Positions 44,119 to 53,157 of a stretch of 57,280 bases of DNA are shown here, piece by piece. Under the pieces are notes generated by a model. That model was not told the origin of the DNA. It ran no database searches and was given only the letters and a program-made list of their open reading frames with translations. Position 1 is the stretch's first letter; each line of letters starts with the position of its first letter. Made by a program: the position numbers and the translations under genes. This stretch comes from Escherichia phage KS_W4, in sequence record PP627281.1. The stretch is one strand, 5' to 3'.

Positions 44119-44148
44119 ATAAAGGGCCGAAAGGCCCTTTATTTATTT
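44119..44148. terminator. bidirectional rho-independent terminator
   Basis: AAAGGGCC-GAAA-GGCCCTTT followed by ATTTATTTG. Confidence 0.7.
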
Positions 44149-46479
44149 GCTTAAGTCTTTGAAAACACTCTCAATTGACTCGTCTATATACCATCCCAAC
44201 CCCCTGAAATTACGCTTCAATGCATCCTCACGCGTAACCGGAACAAGCGCGCCCATGTCTACAAGTTGTTTGATAGTCAGGTCTGTCGCAGTACCTGCCC
44301 CCATCCTGTGATTCTTGAATGCTGCTAACCCGTAGGTTCTGCGTGTGATAGTTGCCTTCGGAATAATACCGTCAACTCGCAGCTCCTTACGATCACATGC
44401 AATTTTACCGCCAAGATAATCTTTGCAGACCTGGCAAATAGCCTTCACGCGCGTTTCATCATCACCGCCAATAGTACCTTTTTCCCATGCGTTGATCATG
44501 ATGTCTTGCCCATGCGTGACAAAATCTACCGCCCATTGCATGTGATTGGGCTGAACGACAGGATTGATCCAGTTTTCCCCCACTGCTAACAGGGAAGCAA
44601 GACGCAGAGCTTTAAGGTGCGCACGGTTCCACGGCTGACGGATAGCTTCGTCTTTTGTTGCGTTAATGTGTTCATCGCACAACAAGTTAAACTCCCGCTC
44701 GATCCTTGCAGCTTCAGGGCTTAACTGGACGGTAACGGTCTGGAACTTTGCCATTGTCACTAACGTGTGGTTAACAAGATGGCACACCATGTCCTTTAAT
44801 TGCTGTGGCATTGTAATTTCAGGATTCTCGTTTGCAGGAACACGATCCCCTTCATATTGCACAATGTGGAAACGGGACAAGAAACCGTCTTCCATCATTT
44901 CACGTGTTAACGCTTCAAAGAATGTGTCCGGTGTTGTTTCGCCCAAAATGCTGAACGCTACCCCTTCCATCGTTTTGGTATTATTAGCCTTATCAGAATA
45001 TCCGATACCGCCAACAACATCCATCGCACCAGATTTTTGATACACATCTGTAATAGTTTGCTTCAAGGTGTAGTTCGCAGTGCCTGGCTGAGCTGTCGCC
45101 ATACCTTTAATGGTTTTACCAAACTCACCGTTAATATTCACAAACGAAGTATGATCCGCAAAACTTTTACGCAAGGCAGGACCGGAAGCATAGTTAGTCA
45201 TGTCTACAAATTCATGCACTTGCGGCAATTGCTCGCCTACCTGCTTACAAATATAGCTGGGCCCAGCGTGAAGCATTTCTTTACCCACACCTGATCGGGC
45301 AATGAGCACAAAGTAACCGTTCAGCCCTGTGTTGGTGATAGTATTCCATACCTTACCGCATACACCTGACAAGAATGCTAACGATGCAGTGATTGCAATT
45401 TCTTTCACCGGACGCTGCGATGCTTTGTAGATATACTTCGCAAGCTCACCAGCAAGTCCCGGCGGCCATTCAATAGCTGTTGCATCAATGGACGTGCTTT
45501 CTGCAACTACTATTTCACCGGACGGGCTGACTGTGGTTACAGGCATTTCCGTTACCTGCTGCATTGCACTGTGTGCGGCTTGCATACGGGCAGCGTAATC
45601 CCGCGCCAGTGCCGCTACGTTTTCCTGGGCAATGCGTTCACGCTCCATACGACCGCGGCACATGCGCAAACAACGGTCAATATGAACATTGTTCTTATTA
45701 GCCTTCTCACGTTTGCCCAGTGCGCTGTAACGGAACAGACGACGACATTGCTCATTACTTTCTGTGTAGAATGCATACATAGAAATAAGAGCAAGATCTG
45801 CTTCAGACTGGGAAGGGAATCCCATTTCAACCCATTCGCCATTGAATAGGCGTGCATACTTATCCCCGTTGTCCGCTTCAAGTGCGCGCTGGTGAATAGT
45901 TGCATCGTCTTCTACCGGATCTTTTTCTACCAGTTCAATTTCATATGTCTTGCGCTGAAGATCAATTTCATTCACAAGCATAGTAAGGTAATGATCACGT
46001 TCTGCAACTGGTTTGTTATAGACAGGATTACCCGTGCAGATAATAAAACGCTCCTGACTATAAACCTCGACACCATCACGTCGACGTCCTTTGCCGATGT
46101 TTCCTCTTAACCACAGGTGGACGCCCAAGCCTGAGCGACTTACTTCGGTGTAAGTATCGAACGCGGTCATGATCTGTTCAAAGCGGCGCAACTGTTCCGG
46201 CGTCGTGTGCTTCTTGGGATCAGGTTCATTGGTTGCGTTCTTCACATCCAGGTCGATGCAGGTGAACGGGTCTTGCGCAGTAAGCACGAAGCCGATGTAA
46301 GGTTTATTGAAATGAGCGGCGCAACCTTTGGCAGCTTCAAACGTCATTAGCATATCCGGATCGGTAACGTCCGCAGCCATCAAACGTCCAATATCGTTAT
46401 CCCATACAAGCGGCTTTTTATCAGCATCGGCGATCGCCCATTGTGGGAAAGCTTTAATTTCAGCGGGAAACAGTTCCAT
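44143..46479 (-). CDS. primase-polymerase (AEP-type) / helicase replication protein
   Basis: 778 aa; N-terminal AEP-like motifs (CIDLDVKN; SRSGLGVHLW); central P-loop-like ARSGVGKE; large size typical of primase-helicase fusions. Confidence 0.55.
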   Translation of the reverse strand: MELFPAEIKAFPQWAIADADKKPLVWDNDIGRLMAADVTDPDMLMTFEAAKGCAAHFNKPYIGFVLTAQDPFTCIDLDVKNATNEPDPKKHTTPEQLRRFEQIMTAFDTYTEVSRSGLGVHLWLRGNIGKGRRRDGVEVYSQERFIICTGNPVYNKPVAERDHYLTMLVNEIDLQRKTYEIELVEKDPVEDDATIHQRALEADNGDKYARLFNGEWVEMGFPSQSEADLALISMYAFYTESNEQCRRLFRYSALGKREKANKNNVHIDRCLRMCRGRMERERIAQENVAALARDYAARMQAAHSAMQQVTEMPVTTVSPSGEIVVAESTSIDATAIEWPPGLAGELAKYIYKASQRPVKEIAITASLAFLSGVCGKVWNTITNTGLNGYFVLIARSGVGKEMLHAGPSYICKQVGEQLPQVHEFVDMTNYASGPALRKSFADHTSFVNINGEFGKTIKGMATAQPGTANYTLKQTITDVYQKSGAMDVVGGIGYSDKANNTKTMEGVAFSILGETTPDTFFEALTREMMEDGFLSRFHIVQYEGDRVPANENPEITMPQQLKDMVCHLVNHTLVTMAKFQTVTVQLSPEAARIEREFNLLCDEHINATKDEAIRQPWNRAHLKALRLASLLAVGENWINPVVQPNHMQWAVDFVTHGQDIMINAWEKGTIGGDDETRVKAICQVCKDYLGGKIACDRKELRVDGIIPKATITRRTYGLAAFKNHRMGAGTATDLTIKQLVDMGALVPVTREDALKRNFRGLGWYIDESIESVFKDLSK

Positions 46480-49275: not shown

Positions 49276-49524
49276 TTACTGGACGATAGCAACGAAATCC
49301 GCGTTTGCGATGTCCATGCTTGCGAAAGCAACGATGCTATAGTCTGTGTCGTTTTCGGCGTTAAACGCTTTGAGGAACTGCTGTACCGCTGCTTTATGGT
49401 TAAGCGTTACGTCGATAGCATAGTCCCAGCTATAGACTTTGCGCTTGCCAAAACCTTTAACTGCAATGCGTGCGCCTTTGGTGTTAGTTGGTGCCAAAAA
49501 TTTAGTGATGATAGAAGTAGCCAT
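49276..49524 (-). CDS. hypothetical protein
   Basis: 82-aa ORF with GAGGA RBS downstream of a promoter-like motif. Confidence 0.45.
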   Translation of the reverse strand: MATSIITKFLAPTNTKGARIAVKGFGKRKVYSWDYAIDVTLNHKAAVQQFLKAFNAENDTDYSIVAFASMDIANADFVAIVQ

Positions 49525-49552
49525 GATGTAATCCTCGTTTTGTTTAAGTTGA

Positions 49553-49585
49553 CTTATTATTGCCCAGTCAGATCAACTAGGCAAG
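49553..49585 (-). promoter_or_regulatory. putative minus-strand promoter (TTGCCT-N17-AATAAT)
   Basis: Minus-strand TTGCCTAGTTGATCTGACTGGGCAATAATAAG upstream of the gene starting at 49524. Confidence 0.4.
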
Positions 49586-49591
49586 ATATAA

Positions 49592-49755
49592 ATCAACTAT
49601 TTTCGCTCACATAATCCAGTGCAGCTTCGAGGAAATAAAATTCTTCCTGCTTATATAAGCTGATTGCCCACTCCAGCTGAGCGCGAGTAAGGTGGCGGTA
49701 TTTGTTGTCGATGCTATAGCTGCGACCGAAGTAAATGATATTGAAGTAGTTGAAC
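49592..49755 (-). CDS. hypothetical small protein
   Basis: 53-aa ORF (MFNYFNIIYFGRSYSIDNKYRHL...) with GGAGG RBS, found by manual translation; first gene of the minus early block. Confidence 0.35.
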
Positions 49756-50073
49756 ATAACGCGCCTCCAAGTGTGGTTAAGAAGTAGTACCGTGTTGCTA
49801 TGGGTACATAATAGCGATGCATTGTGATATTGAATAGGCCAAACGTGCTATTTTGATCTTGTTTTGCATCTAGTGAAAATTATGCTTGCCCTGCATGTTT
49901 AGCACTAATGGCCTAACTAACATCACACGATCTTGTCTACGCGCGTGCATACATACATATAAGGAGCGCCGGACCGGATCGGACCGACCAGGGACACACA
50001 ACCGTCCCTATCTGCCCTGTAAACTGGTCCACGGACCGGTCCAAAATATTTTTATAAAAGATGCAAAAAGGTG

Positions 50074-50102
50074 TAGACATATGATCAATCTAACCCTACT
50101 AT
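50074..50102 (+). promoter_or_regulatory. putative sigma70-type rightward promoter (TAGACA-N17-TACTAT)
   Basis: Hexamers with 17-bp spacing about 50 bp upstream of the first plus-strand early gene (50152). Confidence 0.4.
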
Positions 50103-50151
50103 ATACACATACCGCAAGGGTACTACAAATTAACTTAAAGGGGTTTACATC

Positions 50152-50355
50152 ATGTCTATTCGTAACGTTATCTGTGTAATGGTTGCAAACAATAATTTTG
50201 GTTTCGTAGAAGGTGCAGAGTATAAAATGGATCTTAAGACTCGTTGCATTATTAAAGGTGAAGAGGAATGGCGTGCAGTGGTAGAAGATCGCGGCGATAT
50301 CTACATCTATAGTTCTGATACAATGAAAACTATTGCCGTCTTCGAATTTAACTAA
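50152..50355 (+). CDS. hypothetical early protein
   Basis: 67-aa ORF with AAAGGGG RBS. Confidence 0.45.
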   Translation: MSIRNVICVMVANNNFGFVEGAEYKMDLKTRCIIKGEEEWRAVVEDRGDIYIYSSDTMKTIAVFEFN

Positions 50356-50423
50356 GCTAACTTATACAATGGGCATTAGTACAGTGCCCATTAATAAGCT
50401 AACTAATTATAACGAGGTGTATT

Positions 50424-50609
50424 ATGTCTACGAACACTGTGAAGTCTGTAAATAATAGCAACAGAACATTTAAAGTTATGTACTATGGCGAATATATCGG
50501 AGACGTTACAGCTCCCAGCCGCATCGCTGCGGAAGACTTCGTCCGCGCAGAGATGCAACTTGGAATTGCCGATTTTGCAGCCATTATCGAACTGGTAGAG
50601 GTGTACTAA
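50424..50609 (+). CDS. hypothetical early protein
   Basis: 61-aa ORF with GAGGTG RBS. Confidence 0.45.
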   Translation: MSTNTVKSVNNSNRTFKVMYYGEYIGDVTAPSRIAAEDFVRAEMQLGIADFAAIIELVEVY

Positions 50610-50610
50610 T

Positions 50611-50754
50611 ATGTCACGTAAATACACGCTTACACGCGCACAGCACGCGCTATTATTGCAGGTTATGCGCATGGAGTACGAAGAGACTACATGGGCGCAG
50701 GCCATGCAGACAGGGCGCGAGTTCTACGCGCAACTAATAGCACAAAATGCCTAG
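50611..50754 (+). CDS. hypothetical small protein
   Basis: 47-aa ORF coupled to the upstream stop (TAATATG); manual translation. Confidence 0.3.
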   Translation: MSRKYTLTRAQHALLLQVMRMEYEETTWAQAMQTGREFYAQLIAQNA

Positions 50755-51052
50755 ACAACATGATCGGTCTGGTGGATACTACACACATCAACCAAACAAC
50801 GGGGTAAACAAAATGCGTAGTTTCAAATGTGTAAGCGTAAACGATAATGCTAAGGCTAGTGCAAAGGGTCTGTTCACAGTAGGTAATGTGTATGACTTCA
50901 ACATGGAAAGTTATATACACATGACCCTCACGGGCGTAATGTTCGGCGACGTTGGTGCGGTGCGCTGCGAATTAAACAAGTACACGGAAAAGGAATATGC
51001 TCTTATCAGCCGCTACACGGGCGAGCCGTTAGCTGTGTTCCATGCAGCTTAA
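50747..51052 (+). CDS. hypothetical protein
   Basis: 101-aa ORF; alternative ATG at 50813. Confidence 0.35.
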   Translation: MPRQHDRSGGYYTHQPNNGVNKMRSFKCVSVNDNAKASAKGLFTVGNVYDFNMESYIHMTLTGVMFGDVGAVRCELNKYTEKEYALISRYTGEPLAVFHAA

Positions 51053-51485
51053 GCTATAACGCACACAGCGCCACGCTAGCGAGCTAATGCACAAAGGCAA
51101 TGGTAATGCATTAGCTCGGGCGAAACAGGCGCACAGCGTCGCGCACAGCTCACACAGCTCACACAGACCCACGCAGGCCCAGCCGCGCGACCCCACCCAT
51201 CCTTTTCCAGGTACTTGGAGCGCCGGGGCGTGCCCGTCCATCCTGATAGTAAGTGCTTGTCTAAATCTCACCCATCACATAGCCTATCCACCTACATCCA
51301 TGACCCCACCTACCTTCTTTTTGAATATATTGCGCTCATCCTTTCTAAATATATGGATTTTGGTAGTAAATTCTGAGTCGTCAACGTATAATTCGTCTTG
51401 TAGCTGCTCCATAGCTACCATCTTTAAGCGGATGCAACCAATTTCTATCAATTCTTACCAGTTTTACAGCATCAAGGAGGTATTT

Positions 51486-51713
51486 ATGTGCGACTCCAGT
51501 GCAAGCGCTACACCCAGCACCTCCAGCAATGTGGTTACAGAGGTAAATGCAATGCGATTAGGTCCATATCGCGGCTATTATGGTCGTGCTGCATGGAATG
51601 ACGCTACTCAACGTTTTGAAGGCTGGATTATCTGCCCGGAACGTGTTAAATTTCACTCCGTAAAGAGAAAAATATCGTTCTTAATTTTCAAAAATGTGTC
51701 ACTAAATATGTAG
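51486..51713 (+). CDS. hypothetical protein
   Basis: 75 aa from ATG 51486 with strong RBS AAGGAGG; the longer tracked ORF (51087-) runs through a non-coding-looking region and was trimmed. Confidence 0.45.
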   Translation: MCDSSASATPSTSSNVVTEVNAMRLGPYRGYYGRAAWNDATQRFEGWIICPERVKFHSVKRKISFLIFKNVSLNM

Positions 51714-51726
51714 AGGAGCAAGAAGA

Positions 51727-52017
51727 ATGCGTGTAGAAGAGATTGTTGAAGGTAAAGAGTATCGTCTGCTGACTGACATTGGTGGTGTTGGGTATACTCC
51801 GGATGATGCAGCTTGTTTTAACGTCCTTCCGCAAGGTGCTATCGTGACAGTTAACAAGGTCGTTACCGATTTATACAGCGTTCATGACGGCAGATGGCCA
51901 CATGCAGTTATTGTCACCTTCGGTAAAGATGGATATGTGGATCTTGACGGCGAAGATGACGCTTACGAAGTTGCTTATACAGGTCTTGTAAGCCCCAATT
52001 TCCTGGAAGAAGTATAA
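51727..52017 (+). CDS. hypothetical protein
   Basis: 96-aa ORF with GAGGAG RBS; followed by a GGGCTC-TACG-GAGCCC hairpin. Confidence 0.45.
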   Translation: MRVEEIVEGKEYRLLTDIGGVGYTPDDAACFNVLPQGAIVTVNKVVTDLYSVHDGRWPHAVIVTFGKDGYVDLDGEDDAYEVAYTGLVSPNFLEEV

Positions 52018-52068
52018 TTATCAATCTATAATGGGCTCTACGGAGCCCTTAATTATCTGGAGATTGTT

Positions 52069-52374
52069 ATGCTGTATTTAGGAATGGATTTAAATCGAGA
52101 AAAACCGGATATCCCTGCGGTCGATTCTAAAACTGCAATCAAAGTCCTGTTTTTCGATCAGGAAATCCCTGTAGAGCCGGACGCTACTCACATAGCGGTA
52201 GATGCTAATGGTGTTGTTCATTGCTACTGGGCAAAACCTATCAGGTATAAACGCGGTAACGAATGGCTTATGGGTCATGGTAATATACGTGTTCGCTACT
52301 GCGGCGAAGTTGACCTTGAAGGTATGGACTGGCGCGATACGTTGAAGGAGATTACTACATATGTCCACAGCTGA
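52069..52374 (+). CDS. hypothetical protein (VDLEGxDW family)
   Basis: 101 aa; C-terminal GEVDLEGMDWRDTLKEI matches the ORF at 31271-31525. Confidence 0.5.
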   Translation: MLYLGMDLNREKPDIPAVDSKTAIKVLFFDQEIPVEPDATHIAVDANGVVHCYWAKPIRYKRGNEWLMGHGNIRVRYCGEVDLEGMDWRDTLKEITTYVHS

Positions 52375-52450
52375 AGTTACCACATTCATAATAGCTTTTG
52401 CGGTTGCTTTATTTCTTCTAGCTAAGTTAGATTTATTTATTGGGTAACTT

Positions 52451-52675
52451 ATGCGACTACTTATGGTTCTTGGTGTTATGATTGCCGCTTTCGTTGTATT
52501 TGCAATTGTGGACTCCAAAGAAATGGAGCGGCAAAACTGCCAGCGTACTGGTAACAGCCGGGAGGATATTATTTGGCAATATATTTACGATGCAAAAGGT
52601 AATGTTATGTCAATGTATCCTCAGGTTATTACTGAGTATGAATATAAATGTGATGACCGTAACAGGTGGAGATAA
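52451..52675 (+). CDS. hypothetical membrane-anchored protein
   Basis: 74 aa; N-terminal hydrophobic helix. Confidence 0.4.
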   Translation: MRLLMVLGVMIAAFVVFAIVDSKEMERQNCQRTGNSREDIIWQYIYDAKGNVMSMYPQVITEYEYKCDDRNRWR

Positions 52676-52677
52676 TA

Positions 52678-53157
52678 ATGGAAGTTACTGAAGCTGCTAA
52701 ACGCATGGTGAAATTCTATGTTGGTTCTGATTCACCTTTAATTCGCGCTTTTGGTCAGGAGCTTTATGTTTTCCAGGGTAATCGAGAGGAGGCTGAAGAG
52801 GTCGCTCAGAAGATTCTTGATTTACAAGAAAAAGCTAAACGGGCGGATGCCCTGGAAGCTGAATGGCGAGCTCAGGAAGAACGTGCCGAAAATGCTGAAA
52901 CTAACCTTGTCGACATGCGTGCTGCTGAACACGCTTTATCCGATTCTTATATTCGTTTGCGTCAAATTGTTGGTGCAATGAATCCGCCGGGTGTGACCAG
53001 CGAAGAGGTGTGGGCGCATACCGAGAAGAAGGCTCAAGAGTTGCGTGATCGCTGCGAAGCTCTGGAAGCTGTAGCAAAGGACTTCCTGCGTCGTAATAAA
53101 TATGGTCCTTTGTTCTATCGTGATTTGTATAATCGTTTTAAGGAGATTGTGGAATGA
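52678..53157 (+). CDS. hypothetical protein
   Basis: 159 aa from ATG 52678 (AGGTGGAG RBS); acidic and helical. Confidence 0.45.
   Translation: MEVTEAAKRMVKFYVGSDSPLIRAFGQELYVFQGNREEAEEVAQKILDLQEKAKRADALEAEWRAQEERAENAETNLVDMRAAEHALSDSYIRLRQIVGAMNPPGVTSEEVWAHTEKKAQELRDRCEALEAVAKDFLRRNKYGPLFYRDLYNRFKEIVE

What the first reader, a model, noticed from the sequence alone, without database searches (positions are those of the whole stretch)
51053..51485. 430-bp C/A-rich non-coding stretch within the early operon
No ORF with a plausible start or RBS spans this region; the 208-aa tracked ORF is low-complexity until its last 75 codons, which follow a strong RBS at 51486. The DNA has an 11-bp-stem hairpin (GAGCTAATGCA...TGCATTAGCTC, about 51083-51120), direct repeats GCTCACACAG (about 51148-51168) and strongly skewed C/A composition. 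This could be a structured leader, an sRNA, or a recombination hotspot.
Basis: seen in the sequence. Interest (0 to 1): 0.45.

Follow-up and report, generated by a model that had tools for sequence, protein, structure and literature searches.

The report
Conserved non-coding spacer in phage operon
This 430-base stretch of a Seuratvirus-type coliphage really is non-coding; it is a conserved, modular spacer that most likely ends one early transcript and starts the next, and is a favoured site for swapping gene cassettes: useful for annotation, but an ordinary kind of element.

Summary
Window 51053-51485 lies between two small rightward genes of a Seuratvirus-type (Queuovirinae) coliphage and encodes no conserved protein. 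The 208-aa ORF exists only because this window lacks one T after 51235.

The 12-bp hairpin (51080-51118), the CACAGC-type repeats and the C-over-G bias are all real. The bias is the strongest on the + strand of the 57-kb window.

The stretch is conserved at the nucleotide level in about 35 phage records and weakly in Salmonella, Hafnia and metagenomic relatives. It is built of modules that recombine independently. Its right part is replaced by an HNH homing-endonuclease gene or other small genes in some relatives.

Best reading (confidence about 0.45, inferred only): a transcription-unit boundary. Stem-loops sit directly after the upstream stop codon. An untranslated, C-rich, G-poor, weakly structured tract follows, as at Rho loading sites. 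Then come a promoter-like -10 (TATAAT 51387-51392) and a leader with two small hairpins before a strong ribosome-binding site.

No Rfam family matches, and there is no overall RNA structure signal on either strand. A replication origin, or a non-coding RNA, is not excluded. Interest is modest.

The parts
51053..51485 (+). Whole conserved non-coding intergenic region between two small rightward genes
   Evidence: 85-98% identical in about 35 Seuratvirus records and about 70% in STP-SP5 and yong3. No frame is conserved.
51032..51069 (+). Imperfect palindrome across the upstream stop codon (GCTGTGT...AGCTTAAGCT...ACACAGC); local counterpart of hairpin HP1
   Evidence: Inverted repeat found. Divergent lineages have GCGCUGU-N7-ACAGYGC at this place.
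51080..51118 (+). Hairpin HP2: 12-bp perfect stem with a 15-nt loop holding GCAATG-GTAATG
   Evidence: z = -4.2. 97% of cells are paired, 2 pairs show compensatory changes, and all 3 one-sided changes are G.U on the + strand only.
51129..51166 (+). Cluster of GCRCACAGC / CACAGCTCA short direct repeats (a further copy at 51061-51069)
   Evidence: Two to three GCACAGC copies are kept in STP-SP5, L054 and yong3.
51119..51316 (+). C-rich, G-poor tract (candidate Rho loading region). It contains two GACCCCACC boxes (51189-51206, 51302-51319) and the invariant blocks CCAGGTACTTGG (51207-51218) and GTCCATCCTGATAGTA (51236-51251)
   Evidence: C 0.40, G 0.20. The C/G peak here is the highest on the + strand of the window. 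The blocks are single-copy in the window. There is no excess structure.
51235..51236 (+). Window-specific 1-nt deletion (a T present in all relatives) that fuses the spurious ORF in frame with the downstream gene
51316..51317 (.). Cassette junction after CCCCACCTACCTT. Relatives continue here (or up to about 40 nt upstream) with an HNH gene cassette or SD04's small-ORF cassette
51364..51392 (+). Promoter-like site: -35 TAGTAA (3 of 6), 17-nt spacer, perfect -10 TATAAT (51387-51392)
   Evidence: Read from the sequence. The -10 is TATACT in STP-SP5 and L054 at the aligned place. It fell below the scan's -35 threshold.
51357..51384 (-). Overlapping minus-strand promoter-like site: TTGACG, 16 nt, CAAAAT
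   Evidence: STP-SP5 has CTGACA/CTAAAT and yong3 has GTGACG/TAAAAT, but L054 has CAAAAC, which lacks the final T.
51400..51434 (+). Leader hairpins: HP3 (51400-51418, GTAGCT..AGCTAC) and HP4 box CATCTTTAAGCGGATG (51419-51434)
   Evidence: Both fold as adjacent hairpins on the + strand in the window, STP-SP5 and L054. The HP3 stem sequences differ (GUACC/GGUAC; AGCGCUA/UAGCGUU) while the HP4 box is identical.
51474..51488 (+). Shine-Dalgarno AAGGAGG, 5-nt spacer and ATG of the downstream gene (phrog_24875)

Best explanation
The stretch is a conserved, modular intergenic control region at a transcription-unit boundary inside the rightward early gene block. It also serves as a cassette insertion site.

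Proposed mechanism, read left to right on the + strand RNA:
(i) One or two stable stem-loops sit directly after the stop codon of whatever gene lies upstream. They could protect the 3' end of the upstream message.
(ii) About 200 nt of untranslated, C-rich, G-poor, weakly structured RNA follows. Host Rho could load there and stop or attenuate read-through within the next 100-200 nt.
(iii) An A+T-rich segment carries a sigma-70-type -10 that restarts transcription.
(iv) An approximately 85-nt leader follows, with a 5'-proximal hairpin, a strictly conserved 16-nt hairpin box and a strong ribosome-binding site for the next gene.

Shown here: the region is non-coding, it is conserved at nucleotide level, it is modular, the hairpins are kept through compensatory or G.U changes, and the composition is skewed. 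Inferred only: the Rho dependence, the activity of the promoter, and any transcript ends.
For: - Non-coding. Close relatives carry several 1-nt indels and a 31-nt insertion. ORF lengths are inconsistent. The minus-strand ORF has stops or frameshifts in PLYYY01, CAjan and STP-SP5. Pfam and PHROG give no hit, and only 4 close protein clusters exist.
- Constraint. Diversity is pi = 0.029-0.034 in two sub-blocks, against 0.07-0.13 at third codon positions of the flanking genes. Blocks are kept at about 70% overall identity in STP-SP5, L054 and yong3.
- The element always begins right after the stop codon of non-homologous upstream genes.
- HP2 pairing is kept by compensatory changes, and one-sided changes are G.U on the + strand only.
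- C/G is 1.3-2.0 in every lineage's gap against 0.8-0.9 in flanking genes. This includes the unrelated 'type-2' module and the Providencia gap. The top C/G window of the + strand lies here. There is no excess structure.
- Other sequences at the same site point to the same function. Eight Seuratvirus records replace 51113-51237 with a module holding a 12-bp G+C hairpin (z = -3.2) and a 10/12 promoter match, annotated there as terminator plus promoter. Providencia phages have a canonical intrinsic terminator (z = -5.6) and strong promoter matches in the syntenic gap.
- The -10 is TATAAT, TATACT and TATACT in three lineages, and the leader hairpins are kept.
- The HNH and SD04 cassettes that replace the right part begin with their own extended -10-like TGnTAAAAT.
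Against: - No transcript data exist, so the Rho dependence is inferred from composition and context alone.
- Rho loading sites are degenerate. They do not explain invariant blocks such as GTCCATCCTGATAGTA or CCAGGTACTTGG.
- The -35 is weak (3 of 6), and the consensus scan did not call this promoter.
- HP2 has no U-tract, so it is not itself a terminator.
- The blocks occur once in the genome, which would equally suit an origin or another unique cis site.
- Much of the conservation among the E. coli phages may reflect recent shared ancestry.
Confidence: 0.45

Rival explanations
1. DNA-level cis element, most plausibly the replication origin or a site where a leftward G-rich transcript forms an R-loop primer. 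It would combine short repeats, a strand-asymmetric G/C tract and an adjacent A+T-rich segment.
For: The conserved blocks are single-copy. GCACAGC repeats are spaced 9-12 bp apart and are kept in all lineages. An A+T-rich segment lies next to them (GC 0.385 at 51300-51499). A minus-strand promoter-like site would give a G-rich RNA, and one of only two canonical G4 motifs of the window lies on the minus strand at 51168-51198. The element sits about 1 kb from the divergent strand switch near 50 kb and roughly opposite the convergent switch near 22 kb. The syntenic Providencia gap holds four 25-nt repeats at 30-31-nt spacing. The phage encodes a primase-polymerase/helicase-type protein.
Against: The cumulative GC-skew minimum is at 46-48 kb, not here. 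No DnaA box or IHF site was found. The repeats are 7-9 nt, not iteron-sized. Eight relatives lack the repeat module altogether, and HNH-carrying relatives lack the A+T-rich part. The G4 motif and the minus -10 are not kept in divergent lineages. The hairpin's substitutions favour + strand RNA.
Confidence: 0.17
2. A stable non-coding RNA, for example a protein-binding or decoy RNA, made from the C/A-rich unit on the + strand or from its G/U-rich complement.
For: The stretch is conserved at nucleotide level without coding. Hairpin pairing is kept. In Providencia phages strong promoter matches directly precede an A/C-rich repeat array that ends at a terminator-like hairpin.
Against: No Rfam hit at E <= 10 in the window or E <= 1 in four divergent homologs. 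Folding z-scores are -0.95 to +1.65 on both strands. The RNAalifold covariation term is +0.8. No dedicated promoter lies upstream and no intrinsic terminator downstream in the E. coli-type element.
Confidence: 0.1
3. Largely functionless spacer left by repeated cassette exchange and homing-endonuclease traffic, possibly including decayed gene remnants. Its conservation would reflect recent common descent and co-conversion rather than selection.
For: There are many recombination breakpoints and alternative cassettes. Most homologs are more than 90% identical overall. Gene callers place different spurious ORFs here.
Against: Discrete blocks and both hairpin pairs persist in lineages only about 70% identical. 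Sub-block diversity is 2-4 times lower than at neighbouring third codon positions. The C>G bias is kept even where the sequence is replaced.
Confidence: 0.2
4. Protein-coding: either the long + strand ORF from ATG 51087 (as annotated in CAjan, Seurat, KurtStettler and others), or the 42-aa minus-strand ORF 51284-51412 (as annotated in OddieOddie, CSP1C, Greed and ECP2304).
For: Open frames exist and are annotated in several records. One + frame ends at the same TGA (51374-51376) with a similar ...LLFEY...GSKF tail in the window, STP-SP5 and L054.
Against: ORF length from 51087 varies from 58 to 208 aa because of 1-nt indels. The TGA-ending frame is open for only 36 codons with no usable start in most relatives, 8 in CAjan and 12 in yong3. 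The invariant block GTCCATCCTGATAGTA is read in different frames in different lineages. The minus ORF has a stop in PLYYY01, a frameshift in CAjan and 3 stops in STP-SP5, and its substitutions are nearly all non-synonymous. No Pfam or PHROG hit. Only 4 close clusters of 71-153 aa were found among 5.8 billion proteins. No ribosome-binding site precedes ATG 51087, which lies inside the hairpin stem.
Confidence: 0.03

Closest known systems
Rho-dependent terminators of E. coli and its phages (for example lambda tR1 between cro and cII)
   Same: The tract is untranslated, C-rich, G-poor and weakly structured. It follows directly on a stop codon inside an early operon and has a stem-loop at its 5' side, and the next gene follows within a few hundred nt. 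The composition criteria match those in PMC7815308.
   Different: No boxA was found, and no N-like antiterminator was looked for. Rho dependence is untested. Long exactly conserved blocks are not expected of a plain Rho loading site. A new promoter appears to follow, rather than antiterminated read-through.
Intergenic insertion sites of free-standing homing endonuclease genes and morons in lytic phages (as known for T4 seg/mob genes, recalled from general knowledge)
   Same: Presence/absence of an HNH gene at exactly this intergenic site among close relatives. Flanking sequence is replaced along with it, including the first 22 codons of the downstream gene. Each inserted cassette brings its own promoter-like sequence.
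   Different: The window itself carries no endonuclease. No cleavage site was identified.
Promoter-associated phage replication origins (T7 primary origin, T4 oriF/oriG R-loop origins; recalled from general knowledge)
   Same: Promoter-like sites lie next to an A+T-rich segment and a strand-asymmetric G/C tract. The element is unique and conserved.
   Different: GC skew does not point here. Parts are dispensable in relatives. No experimental origin mapping exists for this phage group; the literature searches found none.

Membership tests
Rho-dependent terminator (loading site plus release zone) | At least about 80 nt of C-rich, G-poor RNA on the transcribed strand | tested here: met
   51119-51316 is C 0.40 and G 0.20. 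The 78-nt window at 51264 has C 30 and G 5, the top of the + strand.
Rho-dependent terminator (loading site plus release zone) | The tract is not translated | tested here: met
   No conserved ORF in any frame. This rests on comparative inference, not ribosome data.
Rho-dependent terminator (loading site plus release zone) | Little secondary structure in the tract | tested here: met
   z = -0.71 for 51053-51320. Only the 5' hairpin is significant.
Rho-dependent terminator (loading site plus release zone) | Transcript 3' ends that depend on Rho (sensitive to bicyclomycin) | not testable with these tools
   Needs infection RNA-seq or Term-seq with and without bicyclomycin.
Intrinsic (Rho-independent) terminator | G+C-rich hairpin immediately followed by a U-tract | tested here: not met
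   HP2 is followed by GGGCGAAACAGG. The scan finds no terminator in 51053-51485; the nearest is at 52033-52048.
Lambda-type nut site | boxA consensus upstream of a boxB hairpin | tested here: not met
   No CGCTCTTA (1 mismatch or fewer) and no rrn boxA (3 mismatches or fewer) in 51000-51520.
Described RNA family (Rfam 15) | Covariance-model match | tested here: not met
   The only match in 49500-53000 is a chance snoRNA hit outside the region (E = 8.6). Four divergent homologs give nothing relevant. No tRNA or tmRNA.
Structured non-coding RNA in general | Fold more stable than shuffles, with covariation | tested here: not met
   z -0.71, +0.51, -0.95 and +1.65. Covariation term +0.8. Only local hairpins are supported.
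Iteron / DnaA-type replication origin | Array of iteron-sized (17-22 bp) repeats or DnaA boxes next to an A+T-rich unwinding element | tested here: inconclusive
   Only 7-9-nt repeats. No DnaA box or IHF site. An A+T-rich segment is present. GC-skew minimum lies at 46-48 kb.
Sigma-70 promoter | -35 and -10 hexamers at 16-18-nt spacing | tested here: inconclusive
   + strand: TAGTAA, 17 nt, TATAAT (9 of 12; the -10 is kept in 3 lineages). - strand: TTGACG, 16 nt, CAAAAT (9 of 12). The number of sites in the region does not exceed shuffles.
Protein-coding gene | Frame, start and length conserved, with substitutions biased to synonymous sites | tested here: not met
Free-standing homing endonuclease locus | Endonuclease gene present or absent at one intergenic site among close relatives | tested here: met
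   An HNH gene sits at this site in WildeMaa, SA80RD, Dru_SM1 and phiG7. The window has the endonuclease-free allele.

The most novel reading that the evidence does not exclude
The 260-nt C/A-rich unit, with its invariant single-copy blocks and flanking hairpins, may be a dedicated cis-acting element of Seuratvirus-like phages. It could be the replication origin (possibly primed by an R-loop from a leftward G-rich transcript), or a binding platform for a phage or host protein that controls the early-to-middle switch. A large non-coding gap with the same strand bias sits at the same place in Providencia Craquatrovirus phages, which would suggest an older, shared function.
Probability: 0.2. Interest if true: 0.55.

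Novelty: new member of a known kind. Interest (0 to 1): 0.3.

Why it matters
For annotation, about a dozen GenBank records place mutually inconsistent 'hypothetical protein' genes on this stretch, on either strand. These should be removed. The window's 208-aa ORF is an artefact of a single missing base.

For biology, the region marks the likely boundary between two early transcription units in a phage group used in therapy and defence-system screens (the BASEL phages Bas21-25). It also pinpoints a natural cassette-insertion site that tolerates foreign genes, which could help engineering.

If the conserved blocks prove to be an origin or a regulatory protein site, it would be the first cis element defined for Queuovirinae.

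Tried and rejected
- Rfam scans of the window region and of four divergent homologs found nothing. ARAGORN found no tRNA or tmRNA.
- Whole-region folding on both strands and RNAalifold gave no signal beyond local hairpins.
- A candidate mid-region stem (51208-51260) was not significant, with z = -0.7 in the window and +0.14 in slur01.
- No match was found in E. coli genomes, so this is not host-derived.
- IMG/VR scans by DNA pattern and by the downstream protein added only 3 close homologs.
- Cross-genus homology to Providencia phages did not hold up. A pairwise score looked significant. However, a profile HMM built from the Seuratvirus lineage did not find the Providencia loci above decoys. 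Only synteny, composition and a marginal similarity remain.
- The conserved blocks do not recur elsewhere in the genome, so they are not a repeated phage promoter or operator.
- The other non-coding C/A-rich stretch at 49.9-50.04 kb is unrelated in sequence.
- The extra 253 bp in CSP1 and RCIP0359 is an unrelated 83-aa gene, not a duplication.
- A + strand frame ending ...GSKF* looked conserved in three lineages but failed across all homologs.
- Literature searches on Seuratvirus, CAjan and Queuovirinae found no description of this region, of promoters, or of an origin.
- No boxA, DnaA box, IHF site or Chi site was found.

Full report
**Identity and context**

The window is a Seuratvirus-type (Queuovirinae) coliphage. 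Its closest records are CSP1/CSP1C, RCIP0359 and PLYYY01.

Genes run rightward at 1-21 kb, leftward at 23-49.5 kb, and rightward again from about 50.15 kb to the end. The finding lies about 1 kb into this last block of small genes. It sits between the stop codon at 51050-51052 and the ATG at 51486, which follows AAGGAGG at 51474-51480. In OddieOddie's annotation the equivalent 432-nt gap is far larger than any other gap between rightward genes in the stretch fetched, which are 68 nt or less.

**Check of the observation**

- The hairpin is a perfect 12-bp stem, 51080-51091 / 51107-51118, with a 15-nt loop. Its z-score is -4.2 and no shuffle out of 200 folds as well.
- CACAGCTCA is repeated in tandem at 51144-51161. 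Looser GCRCACAGC copies lie at 51061, 51129 and 51141.
- The C-over-G bias is extreme. 51119-51316 is 40% C and 20% G. The 78-nt window at 51264 (C 30, G 5) has the highest C/(G+1) on the + strand in the whole 57-kb window. Most other C-rich windows lie under leftward genes.

**It is not coding**

An alignment of 13 full-length close relatives shows several independent 1-nt indels and a 31-nt insertion. The ORF that starts at the equivalent of ATG 51087 is 58, 61, 96, 126 or 171 aa in different phages.

It is 208 aa in the window only because a T present in every relative is missing after 51235. Putting it back gives 96 aa. That ATG lies inside the hairpin stem and has no ribosome-binding site.

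The 42-aa minus-strand ORF annotated in four records has an in-frame stop in PLYYY01, a frameshift in CAjan and three stops in STP-SP5. Almost all its substitutions change the amino acid.

A + strand frame ending at TGA 51374-51376 looked conserved in three lineages. In most relatives, however, it is open for only 36 codons with no usable start, 8 in CAjan and 12 in yong3. The invariant DNA block GTCCATCCTGATAGTA is read in different frames in different lineages.

None of these ORFs hits Pfam or PHROGs. The CAjan-annotated 92-aa product has only four close clusters, of 71-153 aa, among 5.8 billion proteins. Public records annotate this stretch in mutually inconsistent ways.

**It is conserved as DNA/RNA**

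The 433 nt match about 35 phage records at 85-98% identity. They match Salmonella phage STP-SP5 and Hafnia phage yong3 at about 70%, and nothing in E. coli genomes. A metagenome scan added an intermediate lineage, L054.

Within close relatives, diversity in 51119-51200 (pi 0.034) and 51317-51440 (pi 0.029) is 2-4 times lower than at third codon positions of the flanking genes, which show 0.07-0.13.

Several things persist across the four divergent lineages:
- two to three GCACAGC copies;
- ACCCGACCCAYC...TTTTCC.GGTACTT;
- GTCCATYCTGATAGTA;
- CCCCACCYACCTT...GAATAT;
- AAATTCTGA...GTCA;
- in three lineages, an identical CATCTTTAAGCGGATG.

These blocks occur once in the window.

**It is modular and a recombination hotspot**

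Homology starts exactly at 51056, whatever gene lies upstream.
- Eight records, plus several metagenomic contigs, replace 51113-51237 with an unrelated 260-bp 'type-2' module that is found only at this site.
- A 31-nt insertion sits at about 51268 in slur01-like phages.
- From about 51278-51316 onward, WildeMaa, SA80RD, Dru_SM1 and phiG7 carry an HNH homing-endonuclease gene instead of the window's right part. They also lack the first 22 codons of the downstream gene.
- Aeromonas phage SD04 has two small ORFs inserted between 51277 and 51349.

**Structure**

Neither strand folds better than shuffles overall (z -0.71, +0.51, -0.95 and +1.65). RNAalifold gives no covariation support for a global fold. 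Local hairpins are supported, though.
- For HP2, 97% of cells pair across nine distinct variants. Two pairs show compensatory double changes in STP-SP5 (GAGCUAGCCC/GGGCUAGCUC). The three one-sided changes are all G.U on the + strand, which would be A.C on the other strand.
- STP-SP5, L054 and yong3 also have a hairpin HP1 (GCGCUGU-N7-ACAGYGC) immediately after their non-homologous upstream genes. The window has an imperfect palindrome across its stop codon instead.
- In the right part, a hairpin at 51400-51418 keeps its pairing with entirely different stems in STP-SP5 and L054. It is followed by the identical 16-nt hairpin box.

**Promoter-like sites**

A perfect TATAAT at 51387-51392 is TATACT at the aligned place in STP-SP5 and L054. 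Its -35 is weak (TAGTAA). An overlapping minus-strand site (TTGACG, 16 nt, CAAAAT) is kept in STP-SP5 and yong3 but loses the key T in L054. By consensus alone these calls are not above chance.

**Most likely mechanism**

I read the region as a transcription-unit boundary. The steps are protective stem-loops after the stop codon, then an untranslated C-rich, G-poor, unstructured tract suited to Rho loading, then restart from the -10 at 51387-51392. The restart would give an approximately 85-nt leader with a 5' hairpin, a conserved box and a strong ribosome-binding site.

The composition and distances match the general description of Rho loading sites. That description has termination 100-200 nt downstream and 3' ends trimmed afterwards by exonucleases (PMC7815308).

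The best indirect support is what other phages put at the same place.
- The type-2 module holds a 12-bp G+C hairpin (z = -3.2) and a 10/12 promoter match. SA126VB's authors annotated these as terminator and promoter.
- The Providencia phages PSTCR4 and PSTCR7 have a 640-nt gap at the same position in the gene order. It holds a canonical terminator (z = -5.6) and strong promoter matches.
- The C>G bias is kept in all of these.

None of this shows actual termination or initiation, so I put confidence at about 0.45.

**Rivals**

- An origin of replication or other unique DNA site (0.17) would fit the single-copy conserved blocks, the repeats, the adjacent A+T-rich segment and the position near the divergent strand switch. 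Against it, the GC-skew minimum is at 46-48 kb and no DnaA or IHF sites exist. The repeats are short, and whole modules are dispensable in relatives.
- A stable non-coding RNA (0.10) lacks support from Rfam, folding or terminators.
- A largely functionless recombination scar (0.20) is hard to square with the blocks and hairpins kept at 70% identity.
- Coding (0.03) is effectively excluded.

**Cross-genus claim**

A pairwise alignment of window 51246-51359 to the Providencia gap scored above shuffles. A profile built from the Seuratvirus lineage did not recover those loci above decoys. I therefore claim only synteny, shared composition bias and a marginal similarity.

**Verdict**

This is a real, conserved, non-coding, mosaic intergenic control region of a familiar general kind, not described in the literature searched. 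It is worth a correction to annotations and a simple transcript-mapping experiment, but it is not a surprising new class.

Noticed in passing
window 51486-51713 (about 51662): The downstream gene (phrog_24875, weak HicB-like match) is 75 aa here but 83 aa in all relatives. The window has AAA where they have AAAA, which shifts the last 23 codons and removes the usual 10-nt overlap with the next gene. Together with the missing T after 51235, that makes two window-specific single-base deletions within 430 nt, so sequencing or assembly error is possible.
   Followed up: yes
window 51552 onward; L013 2331-2516; L039 2513-2698: The conserved core of the downstream protein starts at MRLGPY. The 22-residue S/T-rich N-terminus of the window type is absent in HNH-carrying phages and in Providencia phages. 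STP-SP5 and L054 have a Cys-rich extension instead.
   Followed up: partly
window 49825-50150: A second unannotated stretch lies at the divergent strand switch. It includes a C/A-rich part (49900-50040, C/G 1.41) with GGACCG-type repeats and a promoter-like site at 50074-50102. It is unrelated in sequence to the finding.
   Followed up: partly
window 51168-51198, minus strand: One of only two canonical G-quadruplex motifs (four G3+ runs) in the whole window lies on the minus strand of the C-rich tract. It is kept in CAjan and slur01 but not in STP-SP5, L054, yong3 or the type-2 module.
   Followed up: yes
L039 956-1072 (Providencia phage PSTCR7); same in L040: Four copies of an approximately 25-nt A/C-rich repeat (TGTAACAATAACA...) at 30-31-nt spacing lie inside a 640-nt unannotated gap. 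Strong promoter matches precede them, and two CACCCCACTA boxes 111 nt apart follow. This looks like an iteron array or a repeat-rich RNA.
   Followed up: partly
L013 1727-1740 (phage WildeMaa): A run of 13 C sits at the junction between the conserved unit and the HNH cassette, where other phages have CCCCACCTACC.
   Followed up: no
L001 2529-2780 (CSP1C_076); also RCIP0359 and CSP1: These phages carry an extra, unrelated 83-aa gene between the downstream gene and the next one. It is absent from the window. It is annotated 'antitoxin HicB' and its neighbour 'Hfq', names that Pfam does not support for the neighbour.
   Followed up: partly
L011 1865-2175 (Aeromonas phage SD04): An unannotated insertion holds two small ORFs, the first a 31-aa hydrophobic peptide (MSLIGLASAFVLGMVAGAMLMVLIVVLAMRN). 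An extended -10-like TGTTAAAAT precedes it.
   Followed up: no
window 51094-51116; L005 1541-1560: The HP2 loop and 3' arm read GGCAATGGTAATGCATTAGC. In the type-2 phages the same place is a perfect 7-2-7 palindrome, TGGTAAT-GC-ATTACCA. From memory the hexamer layout resembles a Fur box. This was not tested, and the layout is not kept in STP-SP5.
   Followed up: no
window 44143-46479, minus strand: A 778-aa protein combines an NrS-1 polymerase-like helix-bundle domain with DUF3987, which suggests a primase-polymerase/helicase. It is relevant to how replication starts in this phage group.
   Followed up: no
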